This document shows, piece by piece, positions 887-33,584 of a DNA stretch of 41,352 bases (positions are counted from its first letter, which is position 1; each line of letters opens with the position of its first letter). Origin of the DNA: a virus. Taxonomy: Duplodnaviria > Caudoviricetes. The DNA is taken from positions 1 to 41,352 of the IMG/VR virus record IMGVR_UViG_3300037423_000767; one strand, 5' to 3'. The position numbers and the translations under genes were made by a program. A model generated the notes under the pieces. The model saw only the letters and a program-made list of their open reading frames with translations, was not told where the DNA came from and ran no database searches.

Positions 887-1759
887 TCAAGCGGCAAGGT
901 TCCTTGCCTCGCGCAAATTGTCGTTGGCTTCCACCAACCTGCGAACGCCGCGCTTTCTAGCACCTCTGTTTGTGCCGCCAGGCGCTATGTCGGCCAATGT
1001 CCTCGCTTCCATAGCATTGTCCAGAGTCTCGATATCCTGTTCGGACAGGTAGCGCATGGTCGCATCCCAAACCTCGCGATGCACCTTGGACATGGCGATA
1101 TCTTCCCAAGCGATCGCGCCGCTTTCGCCTTTCTTGCCCTTGTGCATGCCTACGAAGTTTTCTGCTACACGCTCACCGCCAGACGGCAATGCTGGTGGAC
1201 AAACGGTTATCTCTGGCCACGGGTGAGTAGCCAAAACATCCAACTGCTCTTCCTTTGTCATGAGCGCGCGTCGCTTGTTCGGCTTTCCAGCCTTCACATG
1301 CACAGGATAATCGACGTCGAACATTTCGGCGAAATAGCTGTTGCTAGCCACGACGCTGCGCTCTGTATGGCCGGATCCGCCAAGCGTCGCCTCCGGCTTG
1401 TCGCGCGTTTCGAGCATAGCGCCAGTCGGCATACGCTCATCATACTGTACAATCTTGCCTTCAGGTCCGTAGCAATAAGCACGCTCGGTCTGCGAGCCGT
1501 CGCTGAACCGAAGCTTGCCGATACGCACTATCTGGCCGGCATCGTTGCGCTCGACATCGTGCGTAAAGACGTTGGCCATTATCTCGCCAACGCTTGGCGT
1601 CATGCGCCACGAACGCTCAACGCCAAGCTCTGCAACTTCCTCCGGATTATTGTCGTTGGCCGGAATGACGCTCCAGTTCGTCTTCACCGGCTCAATCGGT
1701 CCTTCCGGCTTATTGCGCCAGGCCATAAGCTGCTGAGCTAGATCGCCGTGGCGAGCCAT
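887..1759 (-). CDS. Hypothetical protein, putative late-transcription regulator, with SsrA-tag-like C-terminus
   Basis: Lies just upstream of the late operon; C-terminal LSEQDIETLDNAMEARTLADIA is sigma4/HTH-like; ends EANDNLREARNLAA; ATG 1759 has GGGG RBS. Confidence 0.6.
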   Translation of the reverse strand: MARHGDLAQQLMAWRNKPEGPIEPVKTNWSVIPANDNNPEEVAELGVERSWRMTPSVGEIMANVFTHDVERNDAGQIVRIGKLRFSDGSQTERAYCYGPEGKIVQYDERMPTGAMLETRDKPEATLGGSGHTERSVVASNSYFAEMFDVDYPVHVKAGKPNKRRALMTKEEQLDVLATHPWPEITVCPPALPSGGERVAENFVGMHKGKKGESGAIAWEDIAMSKVHREVWDATMRYLSEQDIETLDNAMEARTLADIAPGGTNRGARKRGVRRLVEANDNLREARNLAA

Positions 1760-1800
1760 GTTGTCCCCATATGTTGTGATTTGGAATCGGCTTGACACGA

Positions 1801-1829
1801 CATATAGGCGATTTCGCCTATAATGTCAA
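1801..1829 (-). promoter_or_regulatory. Sigma70-type promoter with repressor operator
   Basis: Minus strand TTGACA-17-TATATG; operator TAGGCGATTTCGCCTA at 1805-1820. Confidence 0.8.
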
Positions 1830-1833
1830 GCGG

Positions 1834-2022
1834 CTAGGCTGGCCGCCAGCCGCTATCTAGCGCCTGCATGACTAGCGCAAGCAGGCGCGGCACTGGTCGC
1901 GGATTGGTTGCGCGCTCGAATTCGCTAATACGCATCGGCGAGCCGTAGTCTAGAAAAGACGCAAGCTCCGCTTGGGTCATTCCCAAACGGAGCCTGATTT
2001 CGCGGAATTCTTGGTTGGTCAC
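1834..2022 (-). CDS. Small XRE/Cro-like HTH regulator (Aca-like position)
   Basis: MTNQEFREIRLRLGMTQAELASFLDYGSPMRISEFE; GTG start overlaps upstream stop. Confidence 0.8.
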   Translation of the reverse strand: MTNQEFREIRLRLGMTQAELASFLDYGSPMRISEFERATNPRPVPRLLALVMQALDSGWRPA

Positions 2023-4267: not shown

Positions 4268-6358
4268 CTAAGCCGCCCAATACCACAGCCCAATTTGGTT
4301 GACGTGACCCGCCTTCACCAGGTCATCCGGTGCGCGCTGGAACTGCTTTTTCGTGGTCGCAGCCACCGAAACCGACTCCATATCGCGGGCAGCATAGAAG
4401 TGCTTTTTCCACGTCTCTAGGTCGACCACGTTTATCTCTTCGGGAAACGCGTCGCCTTCCGGTTCGATGCCATCCCGCTCGATAGCGGTATGCAGTGCGG
4501 CAAGAACCTCGCCCTTGTAGCCCTTCAGCGTGCCGCTCGTTGGCACCGTGTCAGGCTCAAGCTGCACCACCACAGGTGCGCTTGTAGGCTCGCCATCCTC
4601 GTCGCGACTGAGCTCTATCGATTCCATCTTGAAGGCCAGGATGTCGCCCTCGTCGCCGTCGTTGGTGCCGTCGCATACCAGCTTGTATTTGCCATGCTCT
4701 TTCTTGACCATGTAGCTGGCGTCCACCGCGCCATCCAAGTCGATGGCACCCTTACCGCGTTCGCCTGACCATGCGCTGTGATGGATGGCCGTGACGTGCG
4801 CCTGTGTGGCTATCAGGATCTCGTCGCATGACTGCACAAACTTGGTCATGTCCTTTGATGCATTCTGGTCGCCGGCACCGAACACACGCGTTAGCGTGTC
4901 GATAATGACCCACACGCACGGCAGGTCGGTTTCGGTTTCGGCCTCCTTGATAAGCGCAATCAGCGCCCGCGCGTCGTCAAGATTGCGCGTGAAGTCCAGT
5001 CTGCCGCCTACCACAAGCAGCGGCACGTCCTTAACGCCGTGGTGCTTGCGGAAGGCCATCATGCGACGCTCGGTAAGCTTCTTTCGCTCGGCCGCCACAT
5101 AGATAACCAAGCCGCGCTTTTTGAGCTTGCGTCCGTGCCAATCCATGCCCGCCGCAACGTGGCAGGCAAGGTCGGTCACAATCACGCTTTTGCCCGTGCC
5201 CGGCAGACCGCTCACCGTGGTGTATTCGCCCACGCCAAGCAGTCCTTTGATTAGCGTTTCCTTCGGCGCGCCTTCCTCGATTTCATCGAACCATGTCTTT
5301 TCGAATCGCTCTTTGCTGCGCGGCTTTGGCTGTGGCTGTGTTGCTGCGGGTTGCTCTGGCTCGGCGTCTGCGGTTGGCTGTGGCGCCGCCTTCTTGGCAT
5401 CATACGCCGCAACCATGTCGGTCGGGTCAATAGATGGCGCTGTTTCGATGACGGGTATCTGTCGCGGACTATTGGCCGTCTTATCCAAGCCGCGCTTGAT
5501 CTTGTCGCGGCAGGATTTGGTGCCATCCTTCTTGACCAGACCAGAAGCCTCGGCCGCCGCATATAAACGGTCCTCGGCATCGGCTCGCGTCAAGGCGCCG
5601 GCCGCGACGATCTCGCCCAATGCGCACGCGCTCGAGAACAGTTGCGCACCGCGATTACCCACCGCGGCAGACGCCATCTTGGCGCACTCGTCCTCAACGG
5701 CGCGACTTACATAGCGTTCGTTGACGGACTCGATCGGACGATACACATACTCGCTGCGCTGCTCTGGTGCGGCCAGCTTGCCGACCACCATGTCAAGCAA
5801 CCATTGCGGCGCCTCGGCAAATGTCGGCATGCCGTGGCCGTCGTGGTTCGTCCATTTGTAGGCGCGGCCATCGGCCATCTTGCTTCCTGGTGCCAGGATA
5901 TAGCCGCCGTCACCCCTAGTATCCACGCCTGGAGCGATAGCCGCACGATTGCGCACGCCATCGACGTGGCGGAAGAATATGTGCGTTCCGCCATTGGCCG
6001 TGCTGGCGCGTGCCGTATCAGGAAGCGGACCATGCTTGGCCTCCATTTCGGCCAGCCATTCGTGGCCGTCGCGATCGCCGTGCTTGTCGAGGTCAAGCAC
6101 CCATGCGCCTAACGGCTCACCGGTAGGCACGCCGACCGCCGCGGCAGGAAATTTGTCGCCAAAGAAGATGTCGACAATGCGCGTCGAGCGCGTGGCGCCT
6201 TTCAGGCCATTCGAATTGTAAGGGGATTTTTCCGGCCGCAATGTGAATTCGCCGGTTGCCGGATCCATCTCGTCGGATTCGACTTCTCGGCACGGAAACA
6301 CGGATACGCCGTGGCTGGTGTACCAGCGAGCGGTTTCCAACGAACTAGGCTGCTGCAA
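4268..6358 (-). CDS. Bifunctional primase/polymerase (PrimPol) fused to AAA (RepA-like) helicase
   Basis: VLDLDKH, STANGGTHIFF, DTRGDGGYILAPGS; Walker A GLPGTGKS, Walker B VIIDT, IHH. Confidence 0.9.
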   Translation of the reverse strand: MQQPSSLETARWYTSHGVSVFPCREVESDEMDPATGEFTLRPEKSPYNSNGLKGATRSTRIVDIFFGDKFPAAAVGVPTGEPLGAWVLDLDKHGDRDGHEWLAEMEAKHGPLPDTARASTANGGTHIFFRHVDGVRNRAAIAPGVDTRGDGGYILAPGSKMADGRAYKWTNHDGHGMPTFAEAPQWLLDMVVGKLAAPEQRSEYVYRPIESVNERYVSRAVEDECAKMASAAVGNRGAQLFSSACALGEIVAAGALTRADAEDRLYAAAEASGLVKKDGTKSCRDKIKRGLDKTANSPRQIPVIETAPSIDPTDMVAAYDAKKAAPQPTADAEPEQPAATQPQPKPRSKERFEKTWFDEIEEGAPKETLIKGLLGVGEYTTVSGLPGTGKSVIVTDLACHVAAGMDWHGRKLKKRGLVIYVAAERKKLTERRMMAFRKHHGVKDVPLLVVGGRLDFTRNLDDARALIALIKEAETETDLPCVWVIIDTLTRVFGAGDQNASKDMTKFVQSCDEILIATQAHVTAIHHSAWSGERGKGAIDLDGAVDASYMVKKEHGKYKLVCDGTNDGDEGDILAFKMESIELSRDEDGEPTSAPVVVQLEPDTVPTSGTLKGYKGEVLAALHTAIERDGIEPEGDAFPEEINVVDLETWKKHFYAARDMESVSVAATTKKQFQRAPDDLVKAGHVNQIGLWYWAA

Positions 6359-7493
6359 TTGCTTGGTCCTGATTGGCGTTATTGTCGTTGGCGGCGGTGG
6401 GCTTAGCGGTGATGGCAGCCAAAGCCCGCTCTACGCGCAGGATTGCGCGGCCGATTGCTTCGGGGATTTGCGGGAGGACCGCATCGCCAAATGCTTCGAC
6501 GATAAGACTGGCTGCAATAGTCCCTCTTGGACTGCCGACTGCAATGCGCGACTTAGCCACCCAGGCGGATAGCCCATCATCCACCCGTAGGTGATGGGCA
6601 AGGCCGCCGTTCCAGTCAGACCATGGCTCTGCAATAGCGCCGCTAGCGCCCTCGCTCCCGCCCACTTGGCCATTGATGGCGCTGTCAAGTTGCCCTTGGC
6701 CGTTGGTGTCAGCGAAAGTTGATGCCGCACCGTCCCCATGCGCCCAGTGTCTCCGTGGCCGCCTGCCTTCATATCCGACGCCCGTGGCGTTGGCATCCCC
6801 GCATGCTTCGACGGATAGCCCCTCAATTGACTCAACACGTCGCCACGTCCGCCCCTGTCCGCATCCGTCTTTCGAGGCGTTGCGAGCAACGCCTCTTTCC
6901 CTGTCAGCAGAGAATTCAGCGACGGCCTCACCGGTCCAGTCCGGCCTGCCGCTCCGCCCTGATTGCTCCCGTACGAAGTTGCGGTTGGCGTCGGCAATTG
7001 AGTATCCGATAAGCCAGCTTCGCTTGCGCTCATGGTTGGCTCCGATGTCTCCAGCACTAACCACGAATGGCCAGCAGGTGTAGCCGATTGCCGCCAGCGC
7101 ATCGATGATCCGGTCTGCTCCTCGAGTTCTGAGATTAGCGCTATTTTCAAGAGCGAACCAACGAGGTCGGCATTCGTCAATGAGGCGGACGGCTTCGAAG
7201 TAGAGGCCGCTCCGCTCGCCGTCGACGCCTTTGCCTTTGGTGTTTGCGCTTGAGATGTCCTGGCATGGCGGCGAGCCGACGATGATGTCGGGAAGTCCAA
7301 CACCATCCCGAACAAGTCTGTCTGCGGTGAGGGTGGTAACGTCGTCATAGACAGGAACTCCGGGATTGTTTTGCGAGTAGAGCGCGCGCCGCCAATCAAT
7401 GACTTCGCAGGCTGCAATTGTGCGATAGCCGGCGCGATGCATCCCAAGGGACCAGCCGCCAGCCGCAGCGCTGAATAGGTCTAGGGCTCTCAT
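6345..7493 (-). CDS. C5-cytosine DNA methyltransferase, alpha polypeptide
   Basis: Motif I LDLFS, IV GSPPCQ, VI EN, VIII HERKR, X FGDAVLPQ; motif IX absent from this frame. Confidence 0.88.
   Translation of the reverse strand: MRALDLFSAAAGGWSLGMHRAGYRTIAACEVIDWRRALYSQNNPGVPVYDDVTTLTADRLVRDGVGLPDIIVGSPPCQDISSANTKGKGVDGERSGLYFEAVRLIDECRPRWFALENSANLRTRGADRIIDALAAIGYTCWPFVVSAGDIGANHERKRSWLIGYSIADANRNFVREQSGRSGRPDWTGEAVAEFSADRERGVARNASKDGCGQGRTWRRVESIEGLSVEACGDANATGVGYEGRRPRRHWAHGDGAASTFADTNGQGQLDSAINGQVGGSEGASGAIAEPWSDWNGGLAHHLRVDDGLSAWVAKSRIAVGSPRGTIAASLIVEAFGDAVLPQIPEAIGRAILRVERALAAITAKPTAANDNNANQDQAIAAA
6431..7348 (-). CDS. C5 methyltransferase beta polypeptide in nested alternative frame (M.EcoHK31I-like)
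   Basis: 305-aa overlapping ORF, GGAG RBS before ATG 7348; LPTP/ATP/MPTP repeats; WMMGYPPGW motif-IX-like end. Confidence 0.75.
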   Translation of the reverse strand: MTTLPPSPQTDLFGMVLDFPTSSSARRHARTSQAQTPKAKASTASGAASTSKPSASLTNADLVGSLLKIALISELEEQTGSSMRWRQSATPAGHSWLVLETSEPTMSASEAGLSDTQLPTPTATSYGSNQGGAAGRTGPVRPSLNSLLTGKEALLATPRKTDADRGGRGDVLSQLRGYPSKHAGMPTPRASDMKAGGHGDTGRMGTVRHQLSLTPTAKGNLTAPSMAKWAGARALAALLQSHGLTGTAALPITYGWMMGYPPGWLSRALQSAVQEGLLQPVLSSKHLAMRSSRKSPKQSAAQSCA

Positions 7494-7831
7494 CAGAAAG
7501 GAGCCTCTTGGTTGCGGACTAATCGGCGCAGTTCATTCGCACACCCATCCCAAACGGCCTTCCACAGCATCCGCCGCTCTAGGTCGTCCATGTCCGCCAT
7601 GTCCGTCTTCCCAATGTCCGCGCAATAGTTCTCAGCGCTGGCATCGCCACCATCAAGGGCGCGGATTTCGTAGGCATCGGCGCGCTTGATCTTCTTGAAG
7701 TCCTCAAGGATCAGGCTGCACTCGGCGCACAGCCAGCGGGGGTCTTTAGGGTTTGGGCCAATGCCTAGGCCGATGGCGTGCTTGCCGCAGAAGTGGCAGT
7801 CGGCGGGAATGTGTTCGGGTGGTATAGTCAT
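7493..7831 (-). CDS. Zn-finger-like phage protein (DUF6511-like)
   Basis: CHFC...CAEC, IGKTDMADM segment, ends EAPF. Confidence 0.6.
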   Translation of the reverse strand: MTIPPEHIPADCHFCGKHAIGLGIGPNPKDPRWLCAECSLILEDFKKIKRADAYEIRALDGGDASAENYCADIGKTDMADMDDLERRMLWKAVWDGCANELRRLVRNQEAPF

Positions 7832-8652
7832 GCGGACTCCTTATTATCATTCGCCGCTTCGCATGCCACGGCGGCACGCTTGCCGTCGCCTTTGCAGAAC
7901 ACCAAAACATTTTGATGCGTCTTGCCGACCTTGCGGCTTGTTCTGAATTGCTTCCCGGTACGGATCGGCAGGCTACCCGCAGCAGTGACGAGAATCGCCT
8001 CGTTGTAATAGCTTAGGCCCGCGTCGCGGAAAGCATTGATGGTATCAGGCACAAAACCGTAATAGTTGCCTCGCTTGTCGCGAACCTCGCCGACAACAAA
8101 GACGGCAAAGCGGTTCTCTTTCAGCATGGCGCACGTTGACGCGATAATGTCACGATACGCGGCAAGAAAGGCGCCGTAATCAAGCGTCGATAGATCGGCT
8201 GGATTGTCGCTGTAAACCTCAAGGTCGGCATACGGAGGACAACTAAACACCATGTCGTAATCGCCCGGAGCTATGTCTTTAATTCCGCGACTATCGCCAA
8301 TATGCCATTGCGGCACAGGACCAGTTCCGATGTGTGCCTGCGCCCGGTTGGCAGCTACCTGCTCGGCACGCAATTCAACCCCGGTATAGGCAAAGCCAAG
8401 CGAGCTTGCGACGATTCCGCGAACGCTACCACCGGCAAACGGATCCAGTATCTTGCCACCAGGCGGGCAGAACCAGCGGTAAGAAAGCTCACAAAGAACC
8501 GGGTCGAAGATGGAGGTGCCGGATTGCGGCACGGACAAATCTTCGTTAAAGCCGCCGAAGGTCAGCCCTTCGGCGGCTCCCCCGGTTTTACCAACAACAT
8601 GTTCACCGCGCATAAGGTCTTGTCCGAAGGTCCGTGCAAAGTTTTTTGCCAT
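7828..8652 (-). CDS. Amino (N4C/N6A-type) DNA methyltransferase-like protein, catalytic part
   Basis: GTSIFDPVLCE, ILDPFAGG SAM motif, FSCPPY catalytic motif; ends AANDNKESA. Confidence 0.85.
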   Translation of the reverse strand: MAKNFARTFGQDLMRGEHVVGKTGGAAEGLTFGGFNEDLSVPQSGTSIFDPVLCELSYRWFCPPGGKILDPFAGGSVRGIVASSLGFAYTGVELRAEQVAANRAQAHIGTGPVPQWHIGDSRGIKDIAPGDYDMVFSCPPYADLEVYSDNPADLSTLDYGAFLAAYRDIIASTCAMLKENRFAVFVVGEVRDKRGNYYGFVPDTINAFRDAGLSYYNEAILVTAAGSLPIRTGKQFRTSRKVGKTHQNVLVFCKGDGKRAAVACEAANDNKESA

Positions 8653-8722
8653 GGTTTGATTTTTCCTGTTGCTCTCTTTGCGAGTATGAGGCTCTCTCCG
8701 ACCACAACCGGAGCGAGAATCG

Positions 8723-8968
8723 ATGCATAAGAATTCACATGAAGCCGACGCCGCTATGTTGTCGGAATTGCCGCGCGCCACGTCTTTCGTGACGTCAATA
8801 TTTCTAGGGCGCGGCCAATATGCCAGGCACGAAAGTGGCAGCCTTGCGGCTGCTCGCACCGTTGGCGATCAAATGGCAGCACATTATCACAATGGCCGTA
8901 AGGCCCTTGTTTACGCGCAACTGCCTAGCGGCAGGCAGTTCCTTGTTCCTGAAACCTATAACGCTTAA
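8723..8968 (+). CDS. Hypothetical protein (81 aa), opposite orientation
   Basis: ORF preceded by CCACAACCGGAG RBS leader. Confidence 0.6.
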   Translation: MHKNSHEADAAMLSELPRATSFVTSIFLGRGQYARHESGSLAAARTVGDQMAAHYHNGRKALVYAQLPSGRQFLVPETYNA

Positions 8969-10431: not shown

Positions 10432-10994
10432 GCTACCTCCTTAAACAGCGGCAAGCCGTTATCATTCGCCGCAAACTTGTCGGTCTGATTTCCCCACGCT
10501 CGCCAATTCGGCCAGGCTTGGCGCGCGAATAGCTCTAGATACGGCCCGTCAACCAATCGCTCTATCCTCTCATATTGCTCATCCGGCTTGCGGCTATGCT
10601 CGCGGCGCGGTGCGCGGATTACCTGGCGCACACCTTTGCCTAGGCGCCGTGGCTTACCGCGCTTAAAAAGATGGCAAATCTCCACCTCCTGTCGCGTCCA
10701 GTAGCCCATTCCCATCTTGCCCTTGTCCCAAACAAAGGCGACGCTCACAGGCTCAAATCCCCACGCGCGGCCGACGTCGAATGCCTGCGATTGCAGATGG
10801 CTTACCGTCCACATGAACAGAAGGCAGTCCTTGGCAGCAACCGCTGCGACGGGTAGCGCCTTGATGGCGTCAAGCGACATCACCGGATACGGCTGCTCGC
10901 CGCGTGCAGGTGCCACGTTGTCGTTTGCATAGGTACGGAACGACCACGGAGGATCCGCAAGGATGCAGCCGAACGGGCCTTCAGGAAGCGTCAT
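10428..10994 (-). CDS. MT-A70 family adenine methyltransferase
   Basis: ILADPPW, LFMW, GMGYWTR, HSRKP, ELFAR, WGNQ. Confidence 0.9.
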   Translation of the reverse strand: MTLPEGPFGCILADPPWSFRTYANDNVAPARGEQPYPVMSLDAIKALPVAAVAAKDCLLFMWTVSHLQSQAFDVGRAWGFEPVSVAFVWDKGKMGMGYWTRQEVEICHLFKRGKPRRLGKGVRQVIRAPRREHSRKPDEQYERIERLVDGPYLELFARQAWPNWRAWGNQTDKFAANDNGLPLFKEVA

Positions 10995-12309: not shown

Positions 12310-13993
12310 CAAGTTCACTCCACCTTACGTTTCCAATTCCATTGTCGTTAGCTGCGGTCGGCTCGTTGTCGTTGTCGTGCGCCTTCTCGGTTCCTGCGCG
12401 CACGTCCTTCACCGTCCAATATTTCCCGTCAGGGGCCACCGCTATTTCGGCGGTCACATTCAATTCGCGTTGCCGCTCAAGCCAGGCCATCACACTGTCA
12501 GGGAACGGCCGGCCGCCCGAATGTTGCGCCCACCAACGGTTAGCCTTGTTCTTGGCAAAGCCCTGATGCTGTGGGCAAAGCCATTCGCGGATTGCCGTCA
12601 TGCCGCATGTGTAAGTCACCTTCACGCTAGGCGGCTTGTCGCCCTTGCCTTCATGGAAGTCGAATCGCCGCTCGGTGACTGGACGCCACGTTGCCTCGCC
12701 GCGAGACAGCATCGGTACGTCTTCGGCTTGGCCTGTAATCTTCGGCGCGTCGTCAATCGGGAAGTCGTATCCGCAATCCGGGCAGCAGCGTGCGGACGCA
12801 TGCACCAGAGAGCCGCAGCCACTCTGACCTTTGGCGTCTGGCCGGTCCTGCGGACACTGCTTGACCGGCGCCTCGCCGCTACCGCTGCGCATGTGCGGCG
12901 GTACAACGGCATCGATCGGCCCGTGCTTGCGCACCACGCCAGCGAAGTCGAGAAACAAACAGTTCTCCTTGCCGGGATAAAGACGCAAGCCGCGCCCAGC
13001 CATCTGCACATAGAGCCCAGCGGACAGAGTCGGGCGGCAGAACGCAACCAAGTCGATGATCGGCAGATTTGTGCCTGTGGTCAGCACCGAATTGTTGCTC
13101 ACCGCCTTAATCTTACCAGCCTTGAAATCGGCCAGGATACGGTCGCGCTCTGCGGTTGGTGTCTCGCCGGAAATCGCCTCACAGGTAATGCCCCTGCTGC
13201 GTATCTCGTCGCGCATGTGAAAGGCATGTTCGACACCGCTGCAGAACAACAGCCACGCGCGCCGGACGCGACCATATGTCAGGATTTCATCGACCACCGC
13301 TGCGTTGACGTCATCTTTGTCGACGGCGGCCTGCAACTTGCCTTGATTATAATCGCCGCCAACCTTGCCGACGCCAGTCAGGTCGAACGCCGTAGCCATG
13401 CCCTTGCTGATCGGACGGCAGAGGTAGCCGCCGTCGATCATGTCGCCGATGGGCTGTTCAAAGCATACGTCATCGAACATGGCGCCTTCGCCTTCGGTGA
13501 GGCGGCCCTCGCCAAGGCGGTAGTCCGTAGCGGTCAGCCCAATGCGCTTGACGTCGGGGTTGATAGCCTCGAGGCCTGCAAACAGCTTGCCGTACTGCGT
13601 GTCGGCCTTGCGCGGGATGAGGTGCGCCTCATCGATCGCCACAAGGTCGAAGTGGCCAAGCTCCTCGGTCTTGTTGTAGATCGTTTGAACGCCGCCAAAG
13701 ACGATTTGCGCATGCGAGTCGCGGCGGCCAACGCCAGCCGAATAGATGCCTGCCGGCGCAAACGGCCAGATAGTCAGCAACTCCTTGTAGTTGCCAAGGA
13801 TGAGCTCGCGGACATGCGTGACGATCAGGATCCGCATTTCTGGATAGCCGGCAAGCAGTTCCTTGCAGATGGTGGCAAGCACTAGGCTTTTTCCTGCTCC
13901 GGTCGGCAAGACGATAAGCGGCGAGCCTGCCTTATCCTGCCAATAGGCGAATAGCGCATCGACAGCGGCTCTCTGATAATCGCGGAGTTGCAT
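12290..13993 (-). CDS. SF2 (DEAH) helicase, RadD/YejH-like with Zn finger
   Basis: LRDYQ, PTGAGKS, DEAH, TAT, QMAGRGLR, CPxC motifs; ends LDDSIPF. Confidence 0.92.
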   Translation of the reverse strand: MQLRDYQRAAVDALFAYWQDKAGSPLIVLPTGAGKSLVLATICKELLAGYPEMRILIVTHVRELILGNYKELLTIWPFAPAGIYSAGVGRRDSHAQIVFGGVQTIYNKTEELGHFDLVAIDEAHLIPRKADTQYGKLFAGLEAINPDVKRIGLTATDYRLGEGRLTEGEGAMFDDVCFEQPIGDMIDGGYLCRPISKGMATAFDLTGVGKVGGDYNQGKLQAAVDKDDVNAAVVDEILTYGRVRRAWLLFCSGVEHAFHMRDEIRSRGITCEAISGETPTAERDRILADFKAGKIKAVSNNSVLTTGTNLPIIDLVAFCRPTLSAGLYVQMAGRGLRLYPGKENCLFLDFAGVVRKHGPIDAVVPPHMRSGSGEAPVKQCPQDRPDAKGQSGCGSLVHASARCCPDCGYDFPIDDAPKITGQAEDVPMLSRGEATWRPVTERRFDFHEGKGDKPPSVKVTYTCGMTAIREWLCPQHQGFAKNKANRWWAQHSGGRPFPDSVMAWLERQRELNVTAEIAVAPDGKYWTVKDVRAGTEKAHDNDNEPTAANDNGIGNVRWSELDDSIPF

Positions 13994-17550: not shown

Positions 17551-18156
17551 TTAGGCCGCCTTCTTCGCTCCCCACGGAGTCTTCTTGGCCGCAGCCGGAG
17601 CTGCCGTTTCGGTCTTAGCCGGCGCCTTATTGTCGTTGCTGGCCGCGGGCTTGGCAGGCATCGTGCCGTCGCCAATCACGCCGAGTTCCGGCACGGGCTC
17701 TTTTGCCTGGTCGTCTTCGTAGTAGAAGCGCTCGATTTGGTTCTTGTCCTTATACGGCTGGCCGGTTTTGGGATTGGTGCCGTTTCCAGGCTGAATGCCG
17801 ATCTCGACAACGAACGATTTGAACAAGAGATCGTCGCTATCCGTGCCTTTCTCGACAAGCACCTGCACGGCACGGCAGAAGCGATCGAACATCGGCTTGC
17901 CATACTTGTACGCGCCGTGCTTGAACTCATCTGCGTGCAACATGGTCCAATAGGACCAAAACTTGCGGCCCTTGAACTCCTCTGGCTCTTGCACTTCGAA
18001 GGTAAGCGCGGCCTGACGTCCCTTGCCGTCTGTGGTTGCGGGGAAGTCGATCGCCTCGGCCCAAATGCGCGCGTACATGTGCGGCAGGATGCCTCCGCCG
18101 CCCTGTTTGTCGGTGGCTTCAACGTCAACGGAATAGTCAAAATCAATCGCGGCCAA
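17551..18156 (-). CDS. Phage single-stranded DNA-binding protein (DUF669-like)
   Basis: LTFEV..EEFKGRKFW, YKDKNQI, Ala/Pro tail ending PW; follows Sak4. Confidence 0.75.
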   Translation of the reverse strand: MAAIDFDYSVDVEATDKQGGGGILPHMYARIWAEAIDFPATTDGKGRQAALTFEVQEPEEFKGRKFWSYWTMLHADEFKHGAYKYGKPMFDRFCRAVQVLVEKGTDSDDLLFKSFVVEIGIQPGNGTNPKTGQPYKDKNQIERFYYEDDQAKEPVPELGVIGDGTMPAKPAASNDNKAPAKTETAAPAAAKKTPWGAKKAA

Positions 18157-21936: not shown

Positions 21937-22599
21937 ATGGAAACCATGGCCGAGAAGATCAAAGCGCTACGCGCGCGGCTTGGTATCGATCAGAAGGAAT
22001 TAAGCGCCAGGATTGGCGTCGACCAATCCACCGTGTCTAAATATGAGCGCGGCGTGCAGGAGCCAAAGCGCGAGCCGAGCATGAAGCTGGCCGAGCTTGC
22101 TGGCGTGCCGTTCGGTGAGTGGGTTGGCGTCGAGCCGGTCACCGCGAAAGATGTGCGTTCCAAGATGGTGCCGGTTGTCGGCGAGCTCTGCGCCGGTCAG
22201 TGGCGGGAAGCCATCGAATGGGAGCACGATGACCAGTATTCGGTGCCGGTTCTGCTGGATCCGGACATGCCGGGCTATCAGTTGCGCGGCTATATCGTGC
22301 GTGGCACGTCGATGAATCGGTATTACCCGGATGGCTCGGTGGTGTTTGCCGCCGCCACGATCTCGAATGGCCTGCAGCCCTCGAGCGGCGACCACGTGCT
22401 TGTCAGCCGCCGCAATCGCAAAGGGCAGTATGAGGCGTCCTTAAAAGAGTACGTAGTTGAGGCTGACGGCTCGAAATGGCTCTGGCCGCGGTCCTCCGAT
22501 CCCGCGCACCAGGCACCGCTGCAGTATGACGGCGCAGAGGAAGTCACGATTACCGGCATCGTGCGCGCCAGCTTCGTTAGTGGACCGCGCAAGGCGTGA
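21937..22599 (+). CDS. cI: CI/LexA-type repressor (HTH + S24 autopeptidase)
   Basis: QKELSARIGVDQSTVSKYERG; A-G cleavage site LCAG; GTSM Ser, SLKEY Lys; start could be 21931-21946. Confidence 0.9.
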   Translation: METMAEKIKALRARLGIDQKELSARIGVDQSTVSKYERGVQEPKREPSMKLAELAGVPFGEWVGVEPVTAKDVRSKMVPVVGELCAGQWREAIEWEHDDQYSVPVLLDPDMPGYQLRGYIVRGTSMNRYYPDGSVVFAAATISNGLQPSSGDHVLVSRRNRKGQYEASLKEYVVEADGSKWLWPRSSDPAHQAPLQYDGAEEVTITGIVRASFVSGPRKA

Positions 22600-24720: not shown

Positions 24721-24874
24721 GCTTATAGTGCCTGGCGGGTGGCAAGCTCTGGCCGTAATTGCGCTAGTCCTGCTTGCCGCCTTGCTATTGGTGGCATGCA
24801 CCACAACAGACATGCCGCGCGATACGGCGCTTGGGATTACGGAGATGCTTAGGCATGACATTGGCGGCGAATGA
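24710..24874 (+). CDS. Small lipoprotein (54 aa)
   Basis: Manual translation MRGRLIV...LLAALLLVA-CTTTD with lipobox; AAGGA RBS. Confidence 0.55.
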   Translation: MRGRLIVPGGWQALAVIALVLLAALLLVACTTTDMPRDTALGITEMLRHDIGGE

Positions 24875-25190
24875 TAATGTGGCGATTGCACCTGGCCAGG
24901 TCTACACGCTGGACGAGGCCGCGGCACATTTGCGACTGACTAACCGCGGCGTTGCCAAGCTGGCGCGCCGTCATGGGCTGTGCCTGGTGCGCGGCCGCGA
25001 TATTCTGCTTACCGCAAAAGACATCGAAGCAATCAAGGACGTCCTACGATGCCCCTCAAACTCTACAAGCGTGGCAAGGTCTACTGGATCAGTGGCACCG
25101 TCCATGGACAAACTGTCCGCGAGTCTGCTGGCACTCAGCAAAAAGAAGTCGCCGAAGCGATCCGCGCAAAACGCGAAGCTGGCCTCGTAA
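24855..25190 (+). CDS. xis: Excisionase-like HTH DNA-binding protein
   Basis: YTLDEAAAHLRLTNRGVAKLAR; immediately upstream of and overlapping int; starts MTLAANDN. Confidence 0.72.
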   Translation: MTLAANDNVAIAPGQVYTLDEAAAHLRLTNRGVAKLARRHGLCLVRGRDILLTAKDIEAIKDVLRCPSNSTSVARSTGSVAPSMDKLSASLLALSKKKSPKRSAQNAKLAS

Positions 25191-26200
25191 GCGACCACGT
25201 ATTCGGGCCGAAGGCGACGCGCACGTTTGCGCAGGCTGTCGAGTCGTATTGGAAGGCTGGCGGCGATAACCGCTTTACCGGCGCCATATATGATGACGGT
25301 ACGCGCGACGGCTTGCTCAATCACTTCTATGACAAGCCGTTGAAGGACATCACGCAGAACGATTTGGACGACGCGGCGCGCACGCTCTACCCGACCGCGC
25401 AGCCGGAGACGCGCAATCGTCAGTGCTACACGCCGTTTATCGCGGTGTGGAACCATGCCGTAAAGAACGGTTGGGCAGACGTGCGGCTATGGTCGCGGCC
25501 GAAAAAGCCGAAGGGCACGAATGTCGTTCGGCTCAAGAGCGAGCGCAGCGGGCAGAAGCCGGTCGATTACGACCGCGCCGCCAAGTTCGTGGCGGCCATG
25601 AGTCCGGCGCCTGCAATGCTGATGACGTTTTTGTTTTACACCGGCCTGCGGCCTATAGAGGCCTTCGCACTCGATGCCGCGGACGTCGACTTGGCTGGCC
25701 GCTGGTTTGTGGTACGCGCGTCCAAGACTGGTGAGCCTCGAGGCGTGCCGCTGCATTCGTTCCTGTGCGAGTGGCTGGCGCCGTTGGTGGAGCGCGGATT
25801 GGCCGATAGCAAGCCGCTGTTTCGCGGGCCGCGTGGCGAGCCGTACACAGCGGTGCAGGAAGGCGGCGGCGGACTTAAGAGTGCCATCAATGGCGCGCGG
25901 CGCCGGTCGGGCATTCGCGACGTTAGCCCGTACACAGGACGCCATACCGTCTCAACTGGCTTGGTGGTTGCTGGCGTGCATTCGCACATCAAGGACCAGA
26001 TCCTCGGCCACGCCGTCACCGACATGAGCCGGCACTACACCAACGTGCCACAGGCTAGTTTGGTGGAAGCGATTGATCTCTTGCCAGTTCCGGCATTGTG
26101 GCGCGCGCTGCCGTGGGTGGCCGATCCGCAGGAGTGGTGGTCGCGGCTGGCCGAGGGGACTGGAAAGAGGACGGATTTGGAGAGGAAGAAAGAGGCATGA
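25049..26200 (+). CDS. int: Tyrosine integrase
   Basis: TGLRPIE (R), SKTG (K), PYTGRHT (H-x-x-R variant), LGH, SRHY (Y). Confidence 0.93.
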   Translation: MPLKLYKRGKVYWISGTVHGQTVRESAGTQQKEVAEAIRAKREAGLVSDHVFGPKATRTFAQAVESYWKAGGDNRFTGAIYDDGTRDGLLNHFYDKPLKDITQNDLDDAARTLYPTAQPETRNRQCYTPFIAVWNHAVKNGWADVRLWSRPKKPKGTNVVRLKSERSGQKPVDYDRAAKFVAAMSPAPAMLMTFLFYTGLRPIEAFALDAADVDLAGRWFVVRASKTGEPRGVPLHSFLCEWLAPLVERGLADSKPLFRGPRGEPYTAVQEGGGGLKSAINGARRRSGIRDVSPYTGRHTVSTGLVVAGVHSHIKDQILGHAVTDMSRHYTNVPQASLVEAIDLLPVPALWRALPWVADPQEWWSRLAEGTGKRTDLERKKEA

Positions 26201-26610: not shown

Positions 26611-26857
26611 CTGTACAGATTTTGTACGCTTTCGAGCGTTTTCACGTACAGTTTCGCTCTTTGTTCTGCACAGCCAAGCAGCCTTACGCTAGACCGTAGA
26701 GCCAAAAAGAGTAACAAAATCAATGGGAAAACTGGTGCTGCGAGAGAGGATTGAACTCTCGACCTCTCCCTTACCAAGGGTATGGTTTAGTTTCTCAAAT
26801 CCTTATGGCGCAAGGGTTTGAGGGGTCATCTTTTCGGAACTGTACGGATTTTGTACG
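26611..26857. other. attP: 48-bp core (26733-26780) matching the 3' part of tRNA-Thr(GGU), with arm-type repeats
   Basis: Minus strand CCCTTGGTAAGGGAGAGGTCGAGAGTTCAATCCTCTCTCGCAGCACCA, 5' half absent; repeats CTGTACRGATTTTGTACG at 26611-26628 and 26840-26857. Confidence 0.88.
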
Positions 26858-29837: not shown

Positions 29838-30098
29838 TTACCAGAGGTCTTCCGAATAAAGCAGTGGTGGCCATTTGGGTTGCCAGACCTGCAGCGCTCT
29901 TTGGGCAACGCCGACAGCTTCTTCGCGCTCGACAAAGCGGCCAGAGTCCGTAACGAAGCCCTGATTGATCGGATGCACAAATGGCGAGATGCCCTGCGCA
30001 TCCATCTCTTGCAAAACAGTATGGTGGCGTGCCGGCTGCGGCATGGATATCACCAAGCCACCAACTCGCATCGCCACCGCTATAATGCGCTCGGTCAA
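29838..30098 (-). CDS. Hypothetical phage protein
   Basis: RHH...QGFVTDSGRFVEREEA...LYSEDLW. Confidence 0.7.
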   Translation of the reverse strand: MTERIIAVAMRVGGLVISMPQPARHHTVLQEMDAQGISPFVHPINQGFVTDSGRFVEREEAVGVAQRALQVWQPKWPPLLYSEDLW

Positions 30099-30724
30099 TG
30101 CCCACCCACCATCTGCTGCACCATGCTTCTGGCTTGCCGTTCCAAGTCGGCTACGGTCGCGGCCGAGATGGTCACGTCTGCAGTCACGGCTGCCTGCACA
30201 GCGTCGCTTTCGACTCCGGTCGGCCCATCATGCCCCGGGCGCTCCAAACGCACCACGCGCCCTCCCTGAGCCTGAAACCACCCCGACTCGTACACGACAG
30301 ACTCGACCACGATCGGAGCGCGCGGATTGCGCTTACGGGTTAGCGCAATCTCCATACCAAGCGTCCAGTCAACGCCCATCGTTGCGCCCATGAAGTGGCC
30401 AAACTTTTCCATAAAGAAGCGCGGCGACTGACCATGCGGCAGCAATGGCGAAGGCTTGTCCTTAAGCGCACCGTAGACCATGTGCTCGGCAATGACCGGG
30501 TTGCCAGTGACGTATTGGAACCACGCGCGGGAAGCCTCCTTGCCGCCTTCGAAAGCATGGATTCTGGCAAAGCCAAATTCCTGCTCTAGCAGGTTGGCAA
30601 CGGTCGACTTGCCGACGTTCCGCTTGCCTGTCAGACCAAGCATTATTGGTCTGCCGTGTAGCGGCCGGTTGTCGTTGGCTGCGAGCTCGTGGCCGCCCCA
30701 AGGATCGAAAGCGGTGGCGGTCAT
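30095..30724 (-). CDS. Deoxynucleoside monophosphate kinase
   Basis: GLTGKRNVGKSTVA P-loop, SPRFFMEKFG, GGRVVRLERPG. Confidence 0.8.
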   Translation of the reverse strand: MTATAFDPWGGHELAANDNRPLHGRPIMLGLTGKRNVGKSTVANLLEQEFGFARIHAFEGGKEASRAWFQYVTGNPVIAEHMVYGALKDKPSPLLPHGQSPRFFMEKFGHFMGATMGVDWTLGMEIALTRKRNPRAPIVVESVVYESGWFQAQGGRVVRLERPGHDGPTGVESDAVQAAVTADVTISAATVADLERQARSMVQQMVGGH

Positions 30725-30903
30725 TGATCCAAAACCTGTATTGGATTAAAGATGCTGATAACCGCGCTAGCGCGCTTTATTGCCTCTTCAGCGCTTGTCG
30801 TTCTGTTCATGTACAAGTCCTCTTCTCGCCAAAACGACCACGGCCATTTCTTATACTCAACCGCCCAATGGTCCATCGGAAGTCGCCGGATTCGTATTCT
30901 CAC
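30721..30903 (-). CDS. Hypothetical protein (60 aa)
   Basis: Coupled ORF. Confidence 0.55.
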   Translation of the reverse strand: MRIRIRRLPMDHWAVEYKKWPWSFWREEDLYMNRTTSAEEAIKRASAVISIFNPIQVLDQ

Positions 30904-31307
30904 TCCACTTCCTCCTTAACCTTGCGCCTCGGCGCGCCTTCACGCACTGGTTTGCCGCGCATCGGACCATCCGGCGCGGCTGGCTTGTAGCCGTCAGGAT
31001 CCGCGGCAATGTTCTTGAGCGATGCCAGCGGGTCATTCACGACTGGCCGAAAGCGCGAAGCCCTGAACGGCATGTCGTGATAGCCAAATTCAGGATCCTC
31101 GCCGCGGTCCAATCCCTCGACCTTGATGCCGAGATATTCGCCGTCGAGGTAGTGAATGAACACGCCTAGCCAGCGGATTTTGTAGACGGCGCCAAGAACC
31201 AGCTCGCACGGAACGCTCACGCGCTGCTCTGGCCTATAGCCGCTGTCGACGCAGACAACCCATTGGCCGACGAAAAACTTGTGCGTTGGGTCGAAGTTGT
31301 CTGTCAT
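30900..31307 (-). CDS. Hypothetical phage protein
   Basis: FFVGQWVVCVD...FRASRFRPV; AGGAG RBS. Confidence 0.7.
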   Translation of the reverse strand: MTDNFDPTHKFFVGQWVVCVDSGYRPEQRVSVPCELVLGAVYKIRWLGVFIHYLDGEYLGIKVEGLDRGEDPEFGYHDMPFRASRFRPVVNDPLASLKNIAADPDGYKPAAPDGPMRGKPVREGAPRRKVKEEVE

Positions 31308-31432
31308 ACCGTTCTCCTACCAGCCTTGACGCGATAGCGCGGCTTGCTGAACCAGACGAAACCAATTGGCTGAACAAAGTGCACGTCATCGACATTCATT
31401 GACGGCACGGTCAGTCGCTCAATCCACCACAC
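31304..31432 (-). CDS. Small hypothetical protein (42 aa)
   Basis: Manual translation MWWIERL...KPRYRVKAGRRTV; coupled at both ends. Confidence 0.5.
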   Translation of the reverse strand: MWWIERLTVPSMNVDDVHFVQPIGFVWFSKPRYRVKAGRRTV

Positions 31433-32310
31433 TAGGCCACCTCCTTCGCCATCTGATAAGCGCGGTCAGCCGCAGACGCCGCGCGGTCACGTTCGAGATA
31501 ATGGTCGTCGCCAGTAAAGGACGCGGCCCGCCACAACTCTCTAAACGTACCCAAGAACGCGGCCTCTGCCTCTGCTGGCGACCAGAATTGCAGTTCGACG
31601 CCAAGGTAGTCACGGTGTTTTTCGTGCCATGCCATCGGCGCCATGTTGACGAGTTCGTCGGCAATGATGCGATTGTCAGCCTCGTGCACGACGTCTGGCA
31701 TGATTTCTGGCAAGCCGTAGCGCTCGGCAATTACCTTCCACAGCGCCGCCTCGTGCAGCCTATATTCGTGCATGCTGCGCTTTACGGGTCGCGGCATGTC
31801 GACCAAGTAGGCTTCTGTGGCGTCGTGCAGCAGTCCGCAGAGCGCGTCAGCAGCCGAGCCGTGCCACCAGATCCAGTTGGCGATCAGGACGGAATGCTCG
31901 GCAACGCTGTAGAAGCGCTTACAGTGACCGGCGTAGCGGCATTGCAGGCTGAGGCTATGGGCGACGTCCTCGATATGCACCTCGTCTGGCCGAGCGTCCA
32001 ACGGCCAGAACTGGCGGGCCGTGTACGTTTGCATGAAGTCACCGCGACGCGCGCTGTTGTCGTTGGCAGGAAACGGCGCCAACCCTTCCGCGCGCCGCAT
32101 ATCGTTTATCGTCATGCGCCCTTCACGGACTTTCTGAGCCAGCGCCTCACGCGTCATCGGCCACACAGCGAACGTCTCGACCGCATCCTGCGCATCGTCG
32201 CTGCGCTCGACGTAGCGGCGGGCGATGGAATCCCAATTAAGCGGCACGCGCTTTCCAAATGGACGAGCGCTGCGGTAGTCTGGCGCGAATTCAATCTTGC
32301 CGACGTTCAT
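31432..32310 (-). CDS. HD-domain 5'-deoxynucleotidase-like (YfbR/YfdR) protein with N-terminal extension
   Basis: IEDVAHSLSLQCRYAGH, YSVAEHS, LLHDATEAY, AD. Confidence 0.85.
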   Translation of the reverse strand: MNVGKIEFAPDYRSARPFGKRVPLNWDSIARRYVERSDDAQDAVETFAVWPMTREALAQKVREGRMTINDMRRAEGLAPFPANDNSARRGDFMQTYTARQFWPLDARPDEVHIEDVAHSLSLQCRYAGHCKRFYSVAEHSVLIANWIWWHGSAADALCGLLHDATEAYLVDMPRPVKRSMHEYRLHEAALWKVIAERYGLPEIMPDVVHEADNRIIADELVNMAPMAWHEKHRDYLGVELQFWSPAEAEAAFLGTFRELWRAASFTGDDHYLERDRAASAADRAYQMAKEVA

Positions 32311-33584
32311 GCCACCTTCTCCTCTCGCTCGAAATTGTCGTTGGCCGCAGTGCGCTTCGCGGCGCCGGCCACCATGCCAGGGCTCAGCGTCAACCGCGCC
32401 ACCTCGCCATGCTCCTTGTGGTAGGTGATGACCTTGGCTGATCGGCCGGATAGCCATCCGCCGTTGGCAGCGTAGGCGTCAGGCGCGGCGAGTGTTTCGT
32501 GCCGCTCGACCTTCATCAGGTTCGTCGACTTGAGCTCGTCGCTATGCAGATGCCCAAGGTGCGCGTAGCTGTGCTTGGTGTTGCCGTAGATTTCGCGATA
32601 GCGGCCAGCGAATACGGAATCCACGTTGTCGATTTTGCGGCGATGACCGTGATGATAGAAGAGCGAGACATTGCCGTGCTGATAGGCGTAATACGTGCCT
32701 GACGTGCGGTCGACGGTGACGCGCGGCTCATCTTCGTAGAACGCCGCGAACATCTCGCGCAGCCAAACCTCGCTGGCCGGATCGTGGTTCGCGTCGCACA
32801 TGATAATGTGCACGTGCTTGTGCTTTGCGAGCAGCCGCGCCGTCGTGCGCCGCAGGAGCCGTATGCTTGTCCGAACCATCTTCGGAAAGCGGCTATCGCC
32901 GTCCAGAACGTGCTTGCTCGTCGGCGTGACGGATTCGAAGCCGTCCCAATGCTGCCAGTCGCCCATCTGCGCGAAGATTGCGGTTTCGGCAGGCGGAGCT
33001 AGGTCGATCGCAGAGGCAAACCAGTCGTCGACCAGCCTCTCGCCAATGGCCAGATCGTAATCGTCCTGGCCCGTTTCCTCAGCCCATGCCAAAGCGCCAA
33101 GGTGCACGTCGGTGACAGTGTACTGATTGAGCAGCGTGTCAATCGTGTAGTCGGGAGCGCGCACCGGCTCTATGCGCGGCACTTCATCTTTGAGCGCATC
33201 GATAACGGCGCGCATAGCCGCTTGCTGCGCCACCTTGTCAGGCTCTACGCGAAGCCAGTCTTGAATAATCCGACCATCCGCATCGCGGTTGACGGTGATC
33301 TTTCCTGTCACATGCGTCGGCGGGATCTCGAATACTTCACCCGGAGCCTTGACCTGCTTAACGTATGTGTTGCCGACCTTCTTCGACAGGCTCGAGATCA
33401 CGTAGCCAGGCAGCGTTTCGGCTGGTCCTAGCAACCCCCGTTCCGCCGCTTGCCTCAGGTGCCGCTGCACGGTCTCACGCGACACGCCGAGAGCCTTGGC
33501 TGTTGCCGTCTGGTTGCTGTCGTTGGCGATGTACGCGGCGTGCGTAGCAAGCAGCGTCTCGTTGTCTGTGGGAGGTGTTGGCAA
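32307..33584 (-). CDS. HTH + calcineurin-like metallophosphoesterase
   Basis: N-terminal HTH; TDVHLG, GD, NHD, HHGH, GHLH motifs; ends AANDNFEREEKVA. Confidence 0.82.
   Translation of the reverse strand: MPTPPTDNETLLATHAAYIANDSNQTATAKALGVSRETVQRHLRQAAERGLLGPAETLPGYVISSLSKKVGNTYVKQVKAPGEVFEIPPTHVTGKITVNRDADGRIIQDWLRVEPDKVAQQAAMRAVIDALKDEVPRIEPVRAPDYTIDTLLNQYTVTDVHLGALAWAEETGQDDYDLAIGERLVDDWFASAIDLAPPAETAIFAQMGDWQHWDGFESVTPTSKHVLDGDSRFPKMVRTSIRLLRRTTARLLAKHKHVHIIMCDANHDPASEVWLREMFAAFYEDEPRVTVDRTSGTYYAYQHGNVSLFYHHGHRRKIDNVDSVFAGRYREIYGNTKHSYAHLGHLHSDELKSTNLMKVERHETLAAPDAYAANGGWLSGRSAKVITYHKEHGEVARLTLSPGMVAGAAKRTAANDNFEREEKVA

What the first reader, a model, noticed from the sequence alone, without database searches (positions are those of the whole stretch)
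887..32348. Genome-wide hard-coded tmRNA (SsrA)-tag mimics: ANDN motifs in many phage proteins
Seen: ANDN occurs 11 times in 9 proteins (917, 1649, 6381, 7843, 10458, 10917, 12341, 24864, 30668, 32056, 32334), plus AASNDN at 17629. Codons vary (GCC/GCG/GCT/GCA, AAC/AAT, GAC/GAT), which points to selection on the peptide rather than the DNA; a rough composition estimate predicts well under one occurrence. Several are near-complete C-terminal tags: EANDNLREARNLAA, AANDNNANQDQAIAAA, AANDNFEREEKVA, AANDNGLPLFKEVA, AANDNKESA. Known: alphaproteobacterial SsrA tags begin AANDN (Caulobacter AANDNFAEEFAVAA; the rhizobial tag as I recall is ANDNYAEARLAA); that part binds the SspB adaptor and the terminal AA binds ClpX. 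Inference: the phage wires MTases, helicase, SSB, Xis, nucleotide enzymes and the late regulator to host SspB-ClpXP, as a timer, to clear leaky toxic products in lysogens, or to titrate the adaptor. Internal and N-terminal copies may be SspB tethers only.
Basis: partly seen in the sequence, partly recalled or inferred. Interest (0 to 1): 0.88.

Follow-up and report, generated by a model that had tools for sequence, protein, structure and literature searches.

The report
Phage proteins copy host tmRNA tag
A temperate phage related to Rhizobium phage 16-3 carries the four residues (Ala-Asn-Asp-Asn) that begin the alphaproteobacterial tmRNA "destroy-me" tag 11 times in 9 of its non-virion proteins, which likely lets the host SspB adaptor hand these proteins to the ClpXP protease, though no binding or degradation has been measured.

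Summary
Observation confirmed: ANDN occurs 11 times in 9 proteins, always in a coding frame, against 0.08 expected. The window is part of a 16-3-like temperate phage, probably of Mesorhizobium. Relatives carry 7-22 copies per genome; a Sinorhizobium chromosome has about 90-fold fewer per base. ANDN begins 30 of 32 alphaproteobacterial tmRNA tags. The phage copies the finished tag, not its gene: codons are free, Ala precedes the motif, the distance to the C-terminus peaks at 11-13 residues (tags 10-13), and the exonuclease tail is an add-on absent from distant homologs. Xis and replication proteins carry it; integrase and repressor do not. Best reading (0.6): SspB docking sites that feed early lytic proteins to ClpXP. 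Caveats: VA/SA ends largely coincide with ribosome-binding-site overlaps; one showcase copy lies in a predicted helix; a syntenic relative has no copy at all; the SspB-tail complex could not be predicted. Not found in nine literature searches. This scan already noted the same motif in eight other windows, so this is a further case of that finding.

The parts
917..928 (-). ANDN, 13 residues from the C-terminus (ends LAA) of the 290-aa unknown protein 887-1759; lies inside a predicted helix
   Evidence: present near the C-terminus in 109 of 120 homologs; helix 264-289, pLDDT 93-95
1649..1660 (-). ANDN at residue 34 of the same protein, in a low-confidence, probably flexible stretch
   Evidence: in the first 90 residues of 83 of 120 homologs; pLDDT about 50
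6381..6392 (-). AANDN tail, 15 residues from the end (ends AAA) of the C5 cytosine methyltransferase 6345-7493
7843..7854 (-). AANDN tail, 8 residues from the end (ends SA, overlapping ATGA) of an N6/N4-type methyltransferase-like protein 7828-8859 (true start uncertain)
10458..10469 (-). AANDN tail, 13 residues from the end (ends VA, overlapping ATGA) of the MT-A70 methyltransferase 10428-10994
   Evidence: same tail in homologs from G472 and G469
10917..10928 (-). internal ANDN just after the DPPW motif of the MT-A70 methyltransferase; not kept in the three homologs seen, so possibly incidental
12341..12352 (-). AANDN in the C-terminal linker of the SF2 helicase 12290-13993, 20 residues from an acidic DDxIPF end; doubled in several relatives
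   Evidence: 10 of 15 cluster members carry it
17629..17640 (-). variant SNDN in the Ala/Pro-rich tail of the SSB-like protein 17551-18156 (ends AA); homologs have ANDN here
   Evidence: 11 of 14 cluster members carry ANDN
24867..24878 (+). AANDN at residues 4-8 of the excisionase-like protein 24855-25190, upstream of the integrase
   Evidence: same N-terminal motif upstream of 6 of 8 integrases of motif-rich phages
30668..30679 (-). AANDN in the N-terminal extension of the dNMP kinase 30095-30724
32056..32067 (-). PANDN in the linker before the HD domain of the 5'-deoxynucleotidase 31432-32310
32334..32345 (-). AANDN tail, 12 residues from the end (ends VA, overlapping ATGA) of the metallophosphoesterase-type exonuclease 32307-33584; an add-on beyond the shared domain
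25049..26200 (+). tyrosine integrase; no ANDN (context: temperate lifestyle)
21937..22599 (+). phage repressor; no ANDN in any of 19 cluster members (context)
26733..26780 (-). 3' half of a tRNA-Thr(GGT), likely the attP core (context)
   Evidence: read from the sequence; near matches in alphaproteobacterial records

Best explanation
The phage has written ANDN, the head of the host tmRNA tag, into the ends and linkers of many early proteins, where it likely serves as a docking site for the host adaptor SspB, which would deliver these proteins to ClpXP. Shown: the motif is selected as a peptide, matches the constant part of alphaproteobacterial tags, is usually preceded by Ala as in the finished tag, sits at tag-like distance from the C-terminus, and goes with C-terminal AA. 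Inferred: SspB binds it; short tails act as whole degrons; N-terminal and linker copies act as tethers that work with a distant AA end; the result is short-lived Xis, replication, methylation and nucleotide enzymes while integrase and repressor stay untagged, which would clear leaky lytic products in a lysogen and end early functions on time.
For: Enrichment: 11 vs 0.085 in the window; 157 vs 1.8 in called genes of 12 motif-rich genomes (genomes chosen for being motif-rich); 266 per Mb against 3.0 per Mb in a Sinorhizobium meliloti chromosome, whose 11 matches include the tmRNA itself and a prophage terminase. Peptide-level: 27 of 32 possible 12-base spellings used; 157 of 168 six-frame matches in a called gene frame, 9 of the other 11 look like genes my caller missed. 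Host match: 30 of 32 tags begin ANDN with everything after it variable except the final AA; S. meliloti tag ANDNYAEARLAA with sspB next door; SspB found in 143 of 151 alphaproteobacterial genomes. Copy of the product, not the gene: residue before ANDN is Ala 80, Pro 46, Val 7 of 157, whereas the S. meliloti and Shinella ssrA DNA reads Val there. Spacing: 41 of 70 copies in the last 20 residues lie 11-13 from the end; one vote per family, 14 of 33 lie at 10-14 (p 1e-5); tags measure 10-13. Add-on: 147 of 150 diverse exonuclease homologs have no ANDN, and 17 of 22 close ones end in an ANDN tail. Link with AA ends, one vote per family: 11 of 28 (tail copies) and 14 of 28 (other copies) vs 42 of 427; among stop-start-overlapping genes 25 of 47 vs 93 of 441. 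Pattern: integrase 0 of 8, upstream Xis-like gene 6 of 8; repressor cluster 0 of 19, capsid 0 of 10, large terminase 0 of 10. Established biology: SspB binds the tag and carries it to ClpX, LVA is a used tag variant, and a tag with a weakened end depends on SspB (PMC9382460 passages); SspB is the adaptor for ssrA-tagged proteins in Caulobacter (PMC9393093 passages).
Against: No binding or half-life data exist here. The C-terminal copy of protein 887-1759 lies in a confident helix, a poor shape for a peptide that SspB is recalled to bind extended. 10 of 11 VA ends of tails overlap a stop-start junction, and among non-overlapping genes the AA excess is weak (5 of 22 vs 41 of 420, p 0.066). Helicase tails end in PF, not AA. 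Tyr never follows ANDN (0 of 156). G470, a complete syntenic provirus sharing 14 genes with the window, has no ANDN at all though it keeps some AA ends, so the motif is dispensable for this phage type, and since SspB is near-universal in the class a host lacking it is not the obvious reason. The portal (8 of 10) and tape measure (5 of 10) also carry it, which a pure 'early protein timer' does not explain. Lambda, P22, HK022 and D3 show no matching excess of their hosts' tag head (1-2 each).
Confidence: 0.6

Rival explanations
1. Decoy: the copies bind SspB, but the point is to occupy the adaptor (and through it ClpX) during infection, slowing turnover of tmRNA-tagged or stress-response substrates, not to destroy the phage proteins.
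For: Many copies sit in probably abundant proteins (SSB-like, portal) or are doubled (helicase), and 87 of 157 are not in the last 20 residues. A phage-encoded SspB homolog has been proposed as a competitive inhibitor in Pseudomonas phage pf16, from modelling only (PMC5587285 passages).
Against: A decoy needs one abundant peptide, not 45 protein families; motif-bearing families are enriched for AA ends and tag-like spacing, which would favour their degradation.
Confidence: 0.15
2. Another reader: ANDN is a docking motif for a different host or phage protein (another protease, chaperone or scaffold), and the likeness to the tag is partly incidental.
For: All-or-none presence across whole genomes, with G470's exonuclease nested among motif-rich phages (SH-aLRT 100, quick tree, one gene), fits loss of one trans-acting factor. 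Pro before the motif (46 of 157) is not a tag feature.
Against: No gene cluster is present in all 11 motif-rich genomes and absent from G470 (BLAST clusters, some genomes partial). The HslV-like peptidase is in only 2 motif-rich genomes and also in motif-free G468. Spacing to the C-terminus and the AA link fit the tag.
Confidence: 0.15
3. Structural or compositional: ANDN is a favoured helix-cap or linker filler that spread by descent, and the AA/VA ends come from ribosome-binding-site and stop-start overlaps.
For: One copy is helical and as conserved as neighbouring core residues; VA/SA ends overlap ATGA junctions; G470 has 10 AA ends without ANDN.
Against: 45 unrelated families carry it; single-residue variants at positions 2-4 are near background while ANDN is about 90-fold over; distant homologs fold without the tail.
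Confidence: 0.07
4. DNA or RNA element: a 12-base site, or pieces copied from the ssrA gene, that happens to read ANDN.
For: GAC is favoured at the Asp codon (124 of 157 vs 62% background, p 4e-6), unexplained.
Against: Other wobble positions follow genome usage, 27 spellings, essentially always in the sense frame; the codon before the motif is not the Val codon of the ssrA frame.
Confidence: 0.03

Closest known systems
Alphaproteobacterial tmRNA (SsrA) tag read by SspB and ClpXP (Caulobacter tag in PMC9393093; SspB structures 2QAS, 2QAZ, 2NYS)
   Same: Head AANDN, length 10-13 from ANDN to the end, frequent terminal AA.
   Different: Encoded in ordinary phage genes instead of added by trans-translation; middle residues free, no Tyr/Phe after the head as a rule; over half the copies are N-terminal or internal.
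RseA(1-108) and other gene-encoded ssrA-like C-degrons of E. coli (table in PMC8138137)
   Same: A normal protein is delivered by SspB to ClpXP and ends in VAA.
   Different: RseA does not copy the tag head and needs cleavage first; single host substrate, not a genome-wide viral motif.
Phage proteins with ClpXP degrons: MuA C-terminus, lambda O N-terminus (PMC8138137)
   Same: Phage replication or recombination proteins handed to host ClpXP.
   Different: Single proteins, direct ClpX motifs, no adaptor site, no likeness to the tag head.
Engineered DAS+4 tags (PMC9382460; 10.1101/2023.11.08.566101)
   Same: Adaptor site kept, ClpX end weakened or spaced away, so degradation depends on SspB.
   Different: Synthetic and E. 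coli-type; the phage tails would be a natural counterpart.
Pseudomonas phage pf16 gp18, a phage-encoded SspB homolog (PMC5587285)
   Same: A phage touching the SspB pathway.
   Different: Encodes the adaptor, not its ligand; no such gene was seen in this window (PHROG scan of 80 ORFs and Pfam scan of 24; the window is about two thirds of the genome).

Membership tests
tmRNA (SsrA) tag | Added by tmRNA during trans-translation | tested here: not met
   Motifs are in ordinary reading frames; no tmRNA gene in the window.
tmRNA (SsrA) tag | Head (A)ANDN of the alphaproteobacterial form | tested here: met
   11 of 11 exact ANDN, 7 preceded by Ala; 30 of 32 host-class tags begin ANDN.
tmRNA (SsrA) tag | C-terminal position with free AA end 10-13 residues after the head | tested here: inconclusive
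   Window: 5 of 11 copies within 15 residues of the end, ending AA (2), VA (2), SA (1). Pooled peak at 11-13, but VA/SA ends are confounded by stop-start overlaps.
SspB-ClpXP substrate | Binds SspB | not tested
   Complex prediction could not be run; needs a bench assay.
SspB-ClpXP substrate | Degraded by ClpXP, faster with SspB | not testable with these tools
   Needs half-life or in vitro degradation assays.
SspB-ClpXP substrate | Motif in an accessible, unfolded stretch | tested here: inconclusive
   Exonuclease tail lies beyond the shared domain; residue-34 copy is low-confidence, but the C-terminal copy of the same protein is helical. The exonuclease model without alignment was too poor to use (pLDDT 39).
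SspB-ClpXP substrate | Host encodes SspB and an ANDN tag | tested here: inconclusive
   Met for S. meliloti and Shinella tags and sspB. The window's own host is inferred as Mesorhizobium from the closest named homologs; no Mesorhizobium genome was read.
16-3-like temperate phages | Shared gene set and order: Sak4, clamp, Cas4-type nuclease, sigma-like factor, SF2 helicase, primase-polymerase, central int-xis-repressor block | tested here: met
   20 of 73 window genes have a BLAST homolog in 16-3, in like order; head and most tail genes are missing from the window.

The most novel reading that the evidence does not exclude
A whole phage lineage runs a genome-wide proteolysis programme by mimicking its host's ribosome-rescue tag: dozens of unrelated protein families gained an SspB docking site, tuned by tail length and end residues, so that the state of host trans-translation (how busy SspB-ClpXP is with real tagged proteins) sets the lifetime of Xis, Cro-like and replication proteins and thereby biases the lysis-lysogeny switch; the programme can be dropped genome-wide in one lineage (G470).
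Probability: 0.3. Interest if true: 0.88.

Novelty: new variant of a known kind. Interest (0 to 1): 0.7.

Why it matters
Phage use of host ClpXP is known for single proteins. A short adaptor-binding motif spread over 45 protein families of one phage group would be a viral short-linear-motif mimicry of a kind mostly described for eukaryotic viruses (own knowledge), and it offers many natural variants for learning what alphaproteobacterial SspB reads. It is directly testable, because phage 16-3, a classical laboratory phage of Sinorhizobium meliloti, carries 18 copies.

Tried and rejected
SspB-tail complex prediction: never ran, the queue was full; no verdict. Exonuclease fold without alignment: unusable. 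Fold search of the 887-1759 model against PDB: no match with E <= 0.001, so 'late regulator' rests on position only. Helicase scan of genome contigs gave no rhizobial prophage; searches of sampled alphaproteobacterial genomes found no relative (0 of 401; 0 of 1; 0 of 11), so I could not pair prophage tails with each host's own tag. Trees for helicase, terminase, portal and Cas4 did not finish. Host of G470: nearest named relatives of its integrase and endolysin are rhizobial, of a moron gene Sulfitobacter; not settled. A phage-encoded reader: no candidate. Tag-head mimicry in four gammaproteobacterial temperate phages: not seen. A collection-wide count of the pattern was not possible. The two Chien 2007 papers on Caulobacter SspB were not held: which tag residues that SspB contacts, and that 2QAS holds a bound tag peptide, are recalled, not read.
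Full report
What the window is. PHROG and Pfam scans show the early, immunity, lysis and moron regions of a temperate phage: primase-polymerase, three methyltransferases, SF2 helicase, sigma-like factor, Cas4-type nuclease, clamp, Sak4, repressor, Xis, tyrosine integrase, dNMP kinase, HD phosphatase, exonuclease, endolysin. Head genes are missing; the record is a linear virus contig, 66% complete. The best named matches of the exonuclease are Sinorhizobium phage NV1.1.1 and Rhizobium phage 16-3 (54%); 20 of 73 genes have a 16-3 homolog. The closest named homologs of protein 887-1759 are from Mesorhizobium (67-76%), so the host is probably a Mesorhizobium (inference). The 3' half of a tRNA-Thr(GGT) beyond the integrase is the likely attP core.

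The observation. ANDN occurs 11 times in six frames, each time in a gene frame, in 9 proteins. Expected from composition: 0.085; 2,000 shuffles gave at most 2; it is the top 4-mer by 12 orders of magnitude over its own overlap AAND and 14 over any unrelated word. As host background, the ANDN-coding pattern occurs 11 times in a 3.72-Mb S. meliloti chromosome, 8 times in 4.6 Mb of Shinella, and 7, 16 and 11 times in three unnamed 4.6-4.8-Mb alphaproteobacterial genomes, about 90-fold below the window per base. Of the 11 S. meliloti matches one is the tmRNA and one lies in a prophage terminase; I checked annotation for that one region only.

Distribution. Among 46 records scanned whole, 16 near-complete 16-3-like genomes have 7-22 copies (16-3 and RHph_TM3_3_14B 18 each), six fragments 2-8, G004 three, RHph_TM3_3_9 one, three exonuclease-related records (G468, G470, G475) none, and 19 more distant records 0-1. 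A looser pattern, AND followed by N, K, D or E, gave 22 each for NV1.1.1 and RHph_X2_25, 0-4 for five other alphaproteobacterial phages and one plasmid record, and 1-2 for lambda, P22, HK022 and D3. The motif is thus a trait of this phage group, not of rhizobial phages or temperate phages in general.

Peptide, not DNA. In 12 motif-rich genomes (11 plus a 20-kb piece of G469; three were read only to 60 kb and TM3_3_14B to 50 kb; genes called by my own script) there are 157 ANDN in called genes against 1.8 expected. They use 27 of 32 possible spellings; Ala and Asn codons follow genome usage, GAC is favoured for Asp (unexplained); 157 of 168 six-frame matches are in a called frame, 9 of the other 11 look like missed genes, 2 are unclear. 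Single-residue variants at positions 2-4 are near background; position 1 tolerates D, E, S, T, F.

Match to the host tag. Of 32 alphaproteobacterial tmRNA loci read (the best-scoring of 149 matches plus two, so a biased sample), 30 encode a tag beginning ANDN and two ANNN; the rest varies except the final AA, and length from ANDN is 10-13. S. meliloti and Shinella have ANDNYAEARLAA with sspB close by. SspB was found in 143 of 151 sampled genomes. The tallies include unpublished genome G045; no other claim rests on it. Three features point to a copy of the finished tag. The residue before ANDN is Ala in 80 and Val in 7 of 157, while the ssrA DNA frame has Val there and the Ala is supplied by the charged tmRNA (established knowledge). 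Of 70 copies in the last 20 residues, 41 lie 11-13 from the end; with one vote per family 14 of 33 lie at 10-14. And motif-bearing families end in AA more often than others, also when the motif is not in the tail (14 of 28 vs 42 of 427), as a tether plus distant degron would need.

The tails are add-ons. Among 150 diverse exonuclease representatives 3 have ANDN, all as C-terminal tails; among 22 close loci 17 end in an ANDN tail, 2 in a variant and 3 in none; 6 more distant loci have none (one duplicate locus, L228, left out). Which proteins carry it is orderly: helicase 10 of 15, SSB-like 11 of 14, exonuclease 10 of 14, portal 8 of 10, tape measure 5 of 10, gene upstream of the integrase 6 of 8; but integrase 0 of 8 (three motif-rich genomes' integrases were not retrieved), repressor cluster 0 of 19, capsid 0 of 10, large terminase 0 of 10. 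Cluster counts include members from motif-poor genomes.

What speaks against a simple reading. First, three of the window's five short tails end in VA or SA over a Shine-Dalgarno-like run and an ATGA stop-start; pooled, 10 of 11 VA tails are such junctions (the overlap test is crude and also flags the gene ending at 887, which has no evident neighbour). The AA excess survives among overlapping genes (25 of 47 vs 93 of 441) but is weak among the others (5 of 22 vs 41 of 420, p 0.066). Second, the C-terminal copy in protein 887-1759, kept in 109 of 120 homologs, is inside a predicted helix with pLDDT 93-95 and may be structural. Third, Tyr never follows the motif (0 of 156). Fourth, G470, a complete provirus with the same layout, lacks ANDN in every protein; its exonuclease groups with two motif-rich phages (SH-aLRT 100, quick tree of one gene with tails removed), suggesting genome-wide loss, though mosaic exchange could give the same tree. 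No phage gene tracks the motif and G470's host is unknown. Fifth, nothing here measures binding: the complex prediction never ran because the queue was full.

Mechanism. Most likely (0.6): ANDN docks on host SspB, which passes the protein to ClpXP through an AA/VA end nearby or at the far end, shortening the life of Xis, Cro-like, replication, methylation and nucleotide proteins and limiting spare portal, while repressor and integrase are spared. Steps shown: selection on the peptide, identity with the tag head, spacing, AA link, protein pattern. Steps inferred: binding, degradation, purpose. Rivals: SspB decoy (0.15), another reader (0.15), structure or drift plus junction effects (0.07), nucleic-acid element (0.03).

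What is known. Nine searches of the held library (terms such as ANDN with tmRNA and phage, AANDN, SspB with phage and mimic, phage 16-3 with ClpXP, 'ANDN motif') listed no paper describing this motif in phages; the library lacks most subscription journals, and no supplements were read. A term search of the AP-16-3 genome paper (PMC10460002) found no ANDN, tmRNA, ssrA, SspB, Clp or degron in its main text. I read passages only of PMC9393093, PMC8138137, PMC9382460, PMC5587285 and 10.1101/2023.11.08.566101. The contact residues of Caulobacter SspB are recalled from papers not held. This scan has eight earlier notes of the same motif in other windows; they are not independent evidence, and my reading of the motif as a tag mimic was formed before I saw them. 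Verdict: real, strongly non-random, a new variant of a known kind (gene-encoded ssrA-like degrons), mechanism plausible but untested; interest 0.7.

Noticed in passing
G470 (L243-L246): Complete 65.7-kb provirus with 16-3-like layout but no ANDN in any frame, while keeping 10 AA-ending genes; a natural motif-free control.
   Followed up: partly
window 26733-26780 (-) and 391-465 (-): A 3' half tRNA-Thr(GGT) at the likely attP, and a separate complete tRNA-Thr(TGT) gene near the left end.
   Followed up: partly
window 15458-15958 (-): HslV/proteasome-subunit-like peptidase inside the replication operon; homologs only in G003 and motif-free G468 among the genomes compared.
   Followed up: partly
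window 12290-12340 (-): Helicase ends in an acidic DDxIPF tail like the C-terminus of bacterial SSB (recalled), conserved in nearly all relatives including motif-free G470.
   Followed up: no
window 38741-40389 (+): Moron-like pair on the opposite strand: sulfotransferase plus family-2 glycosyltransferase, a candidate surface-polysaccharide conversion module.
   Followed up: no
window 6345-10994 (-): Three different DNA methyltransferase types (C5, N6/N4-like, MT-A70) with a PLP-dependent enzyme-like gene (9420-10115) and a ParB-like fragment between them.
   Followed up: no
CP090106.1 1444852-1461760 (L210): Small phage-like or satellite element in an S. meliloti chromosome (record labelled pSymB) whose terminase carries AANDN 26 residues from its end.
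   Followed up: partly
L141, L142: Two Oceaniglobus tmRNA tags begin ANNN instead of ANDN; phages of such hosts would be a test of motif-host covariation.
   Followed up: no
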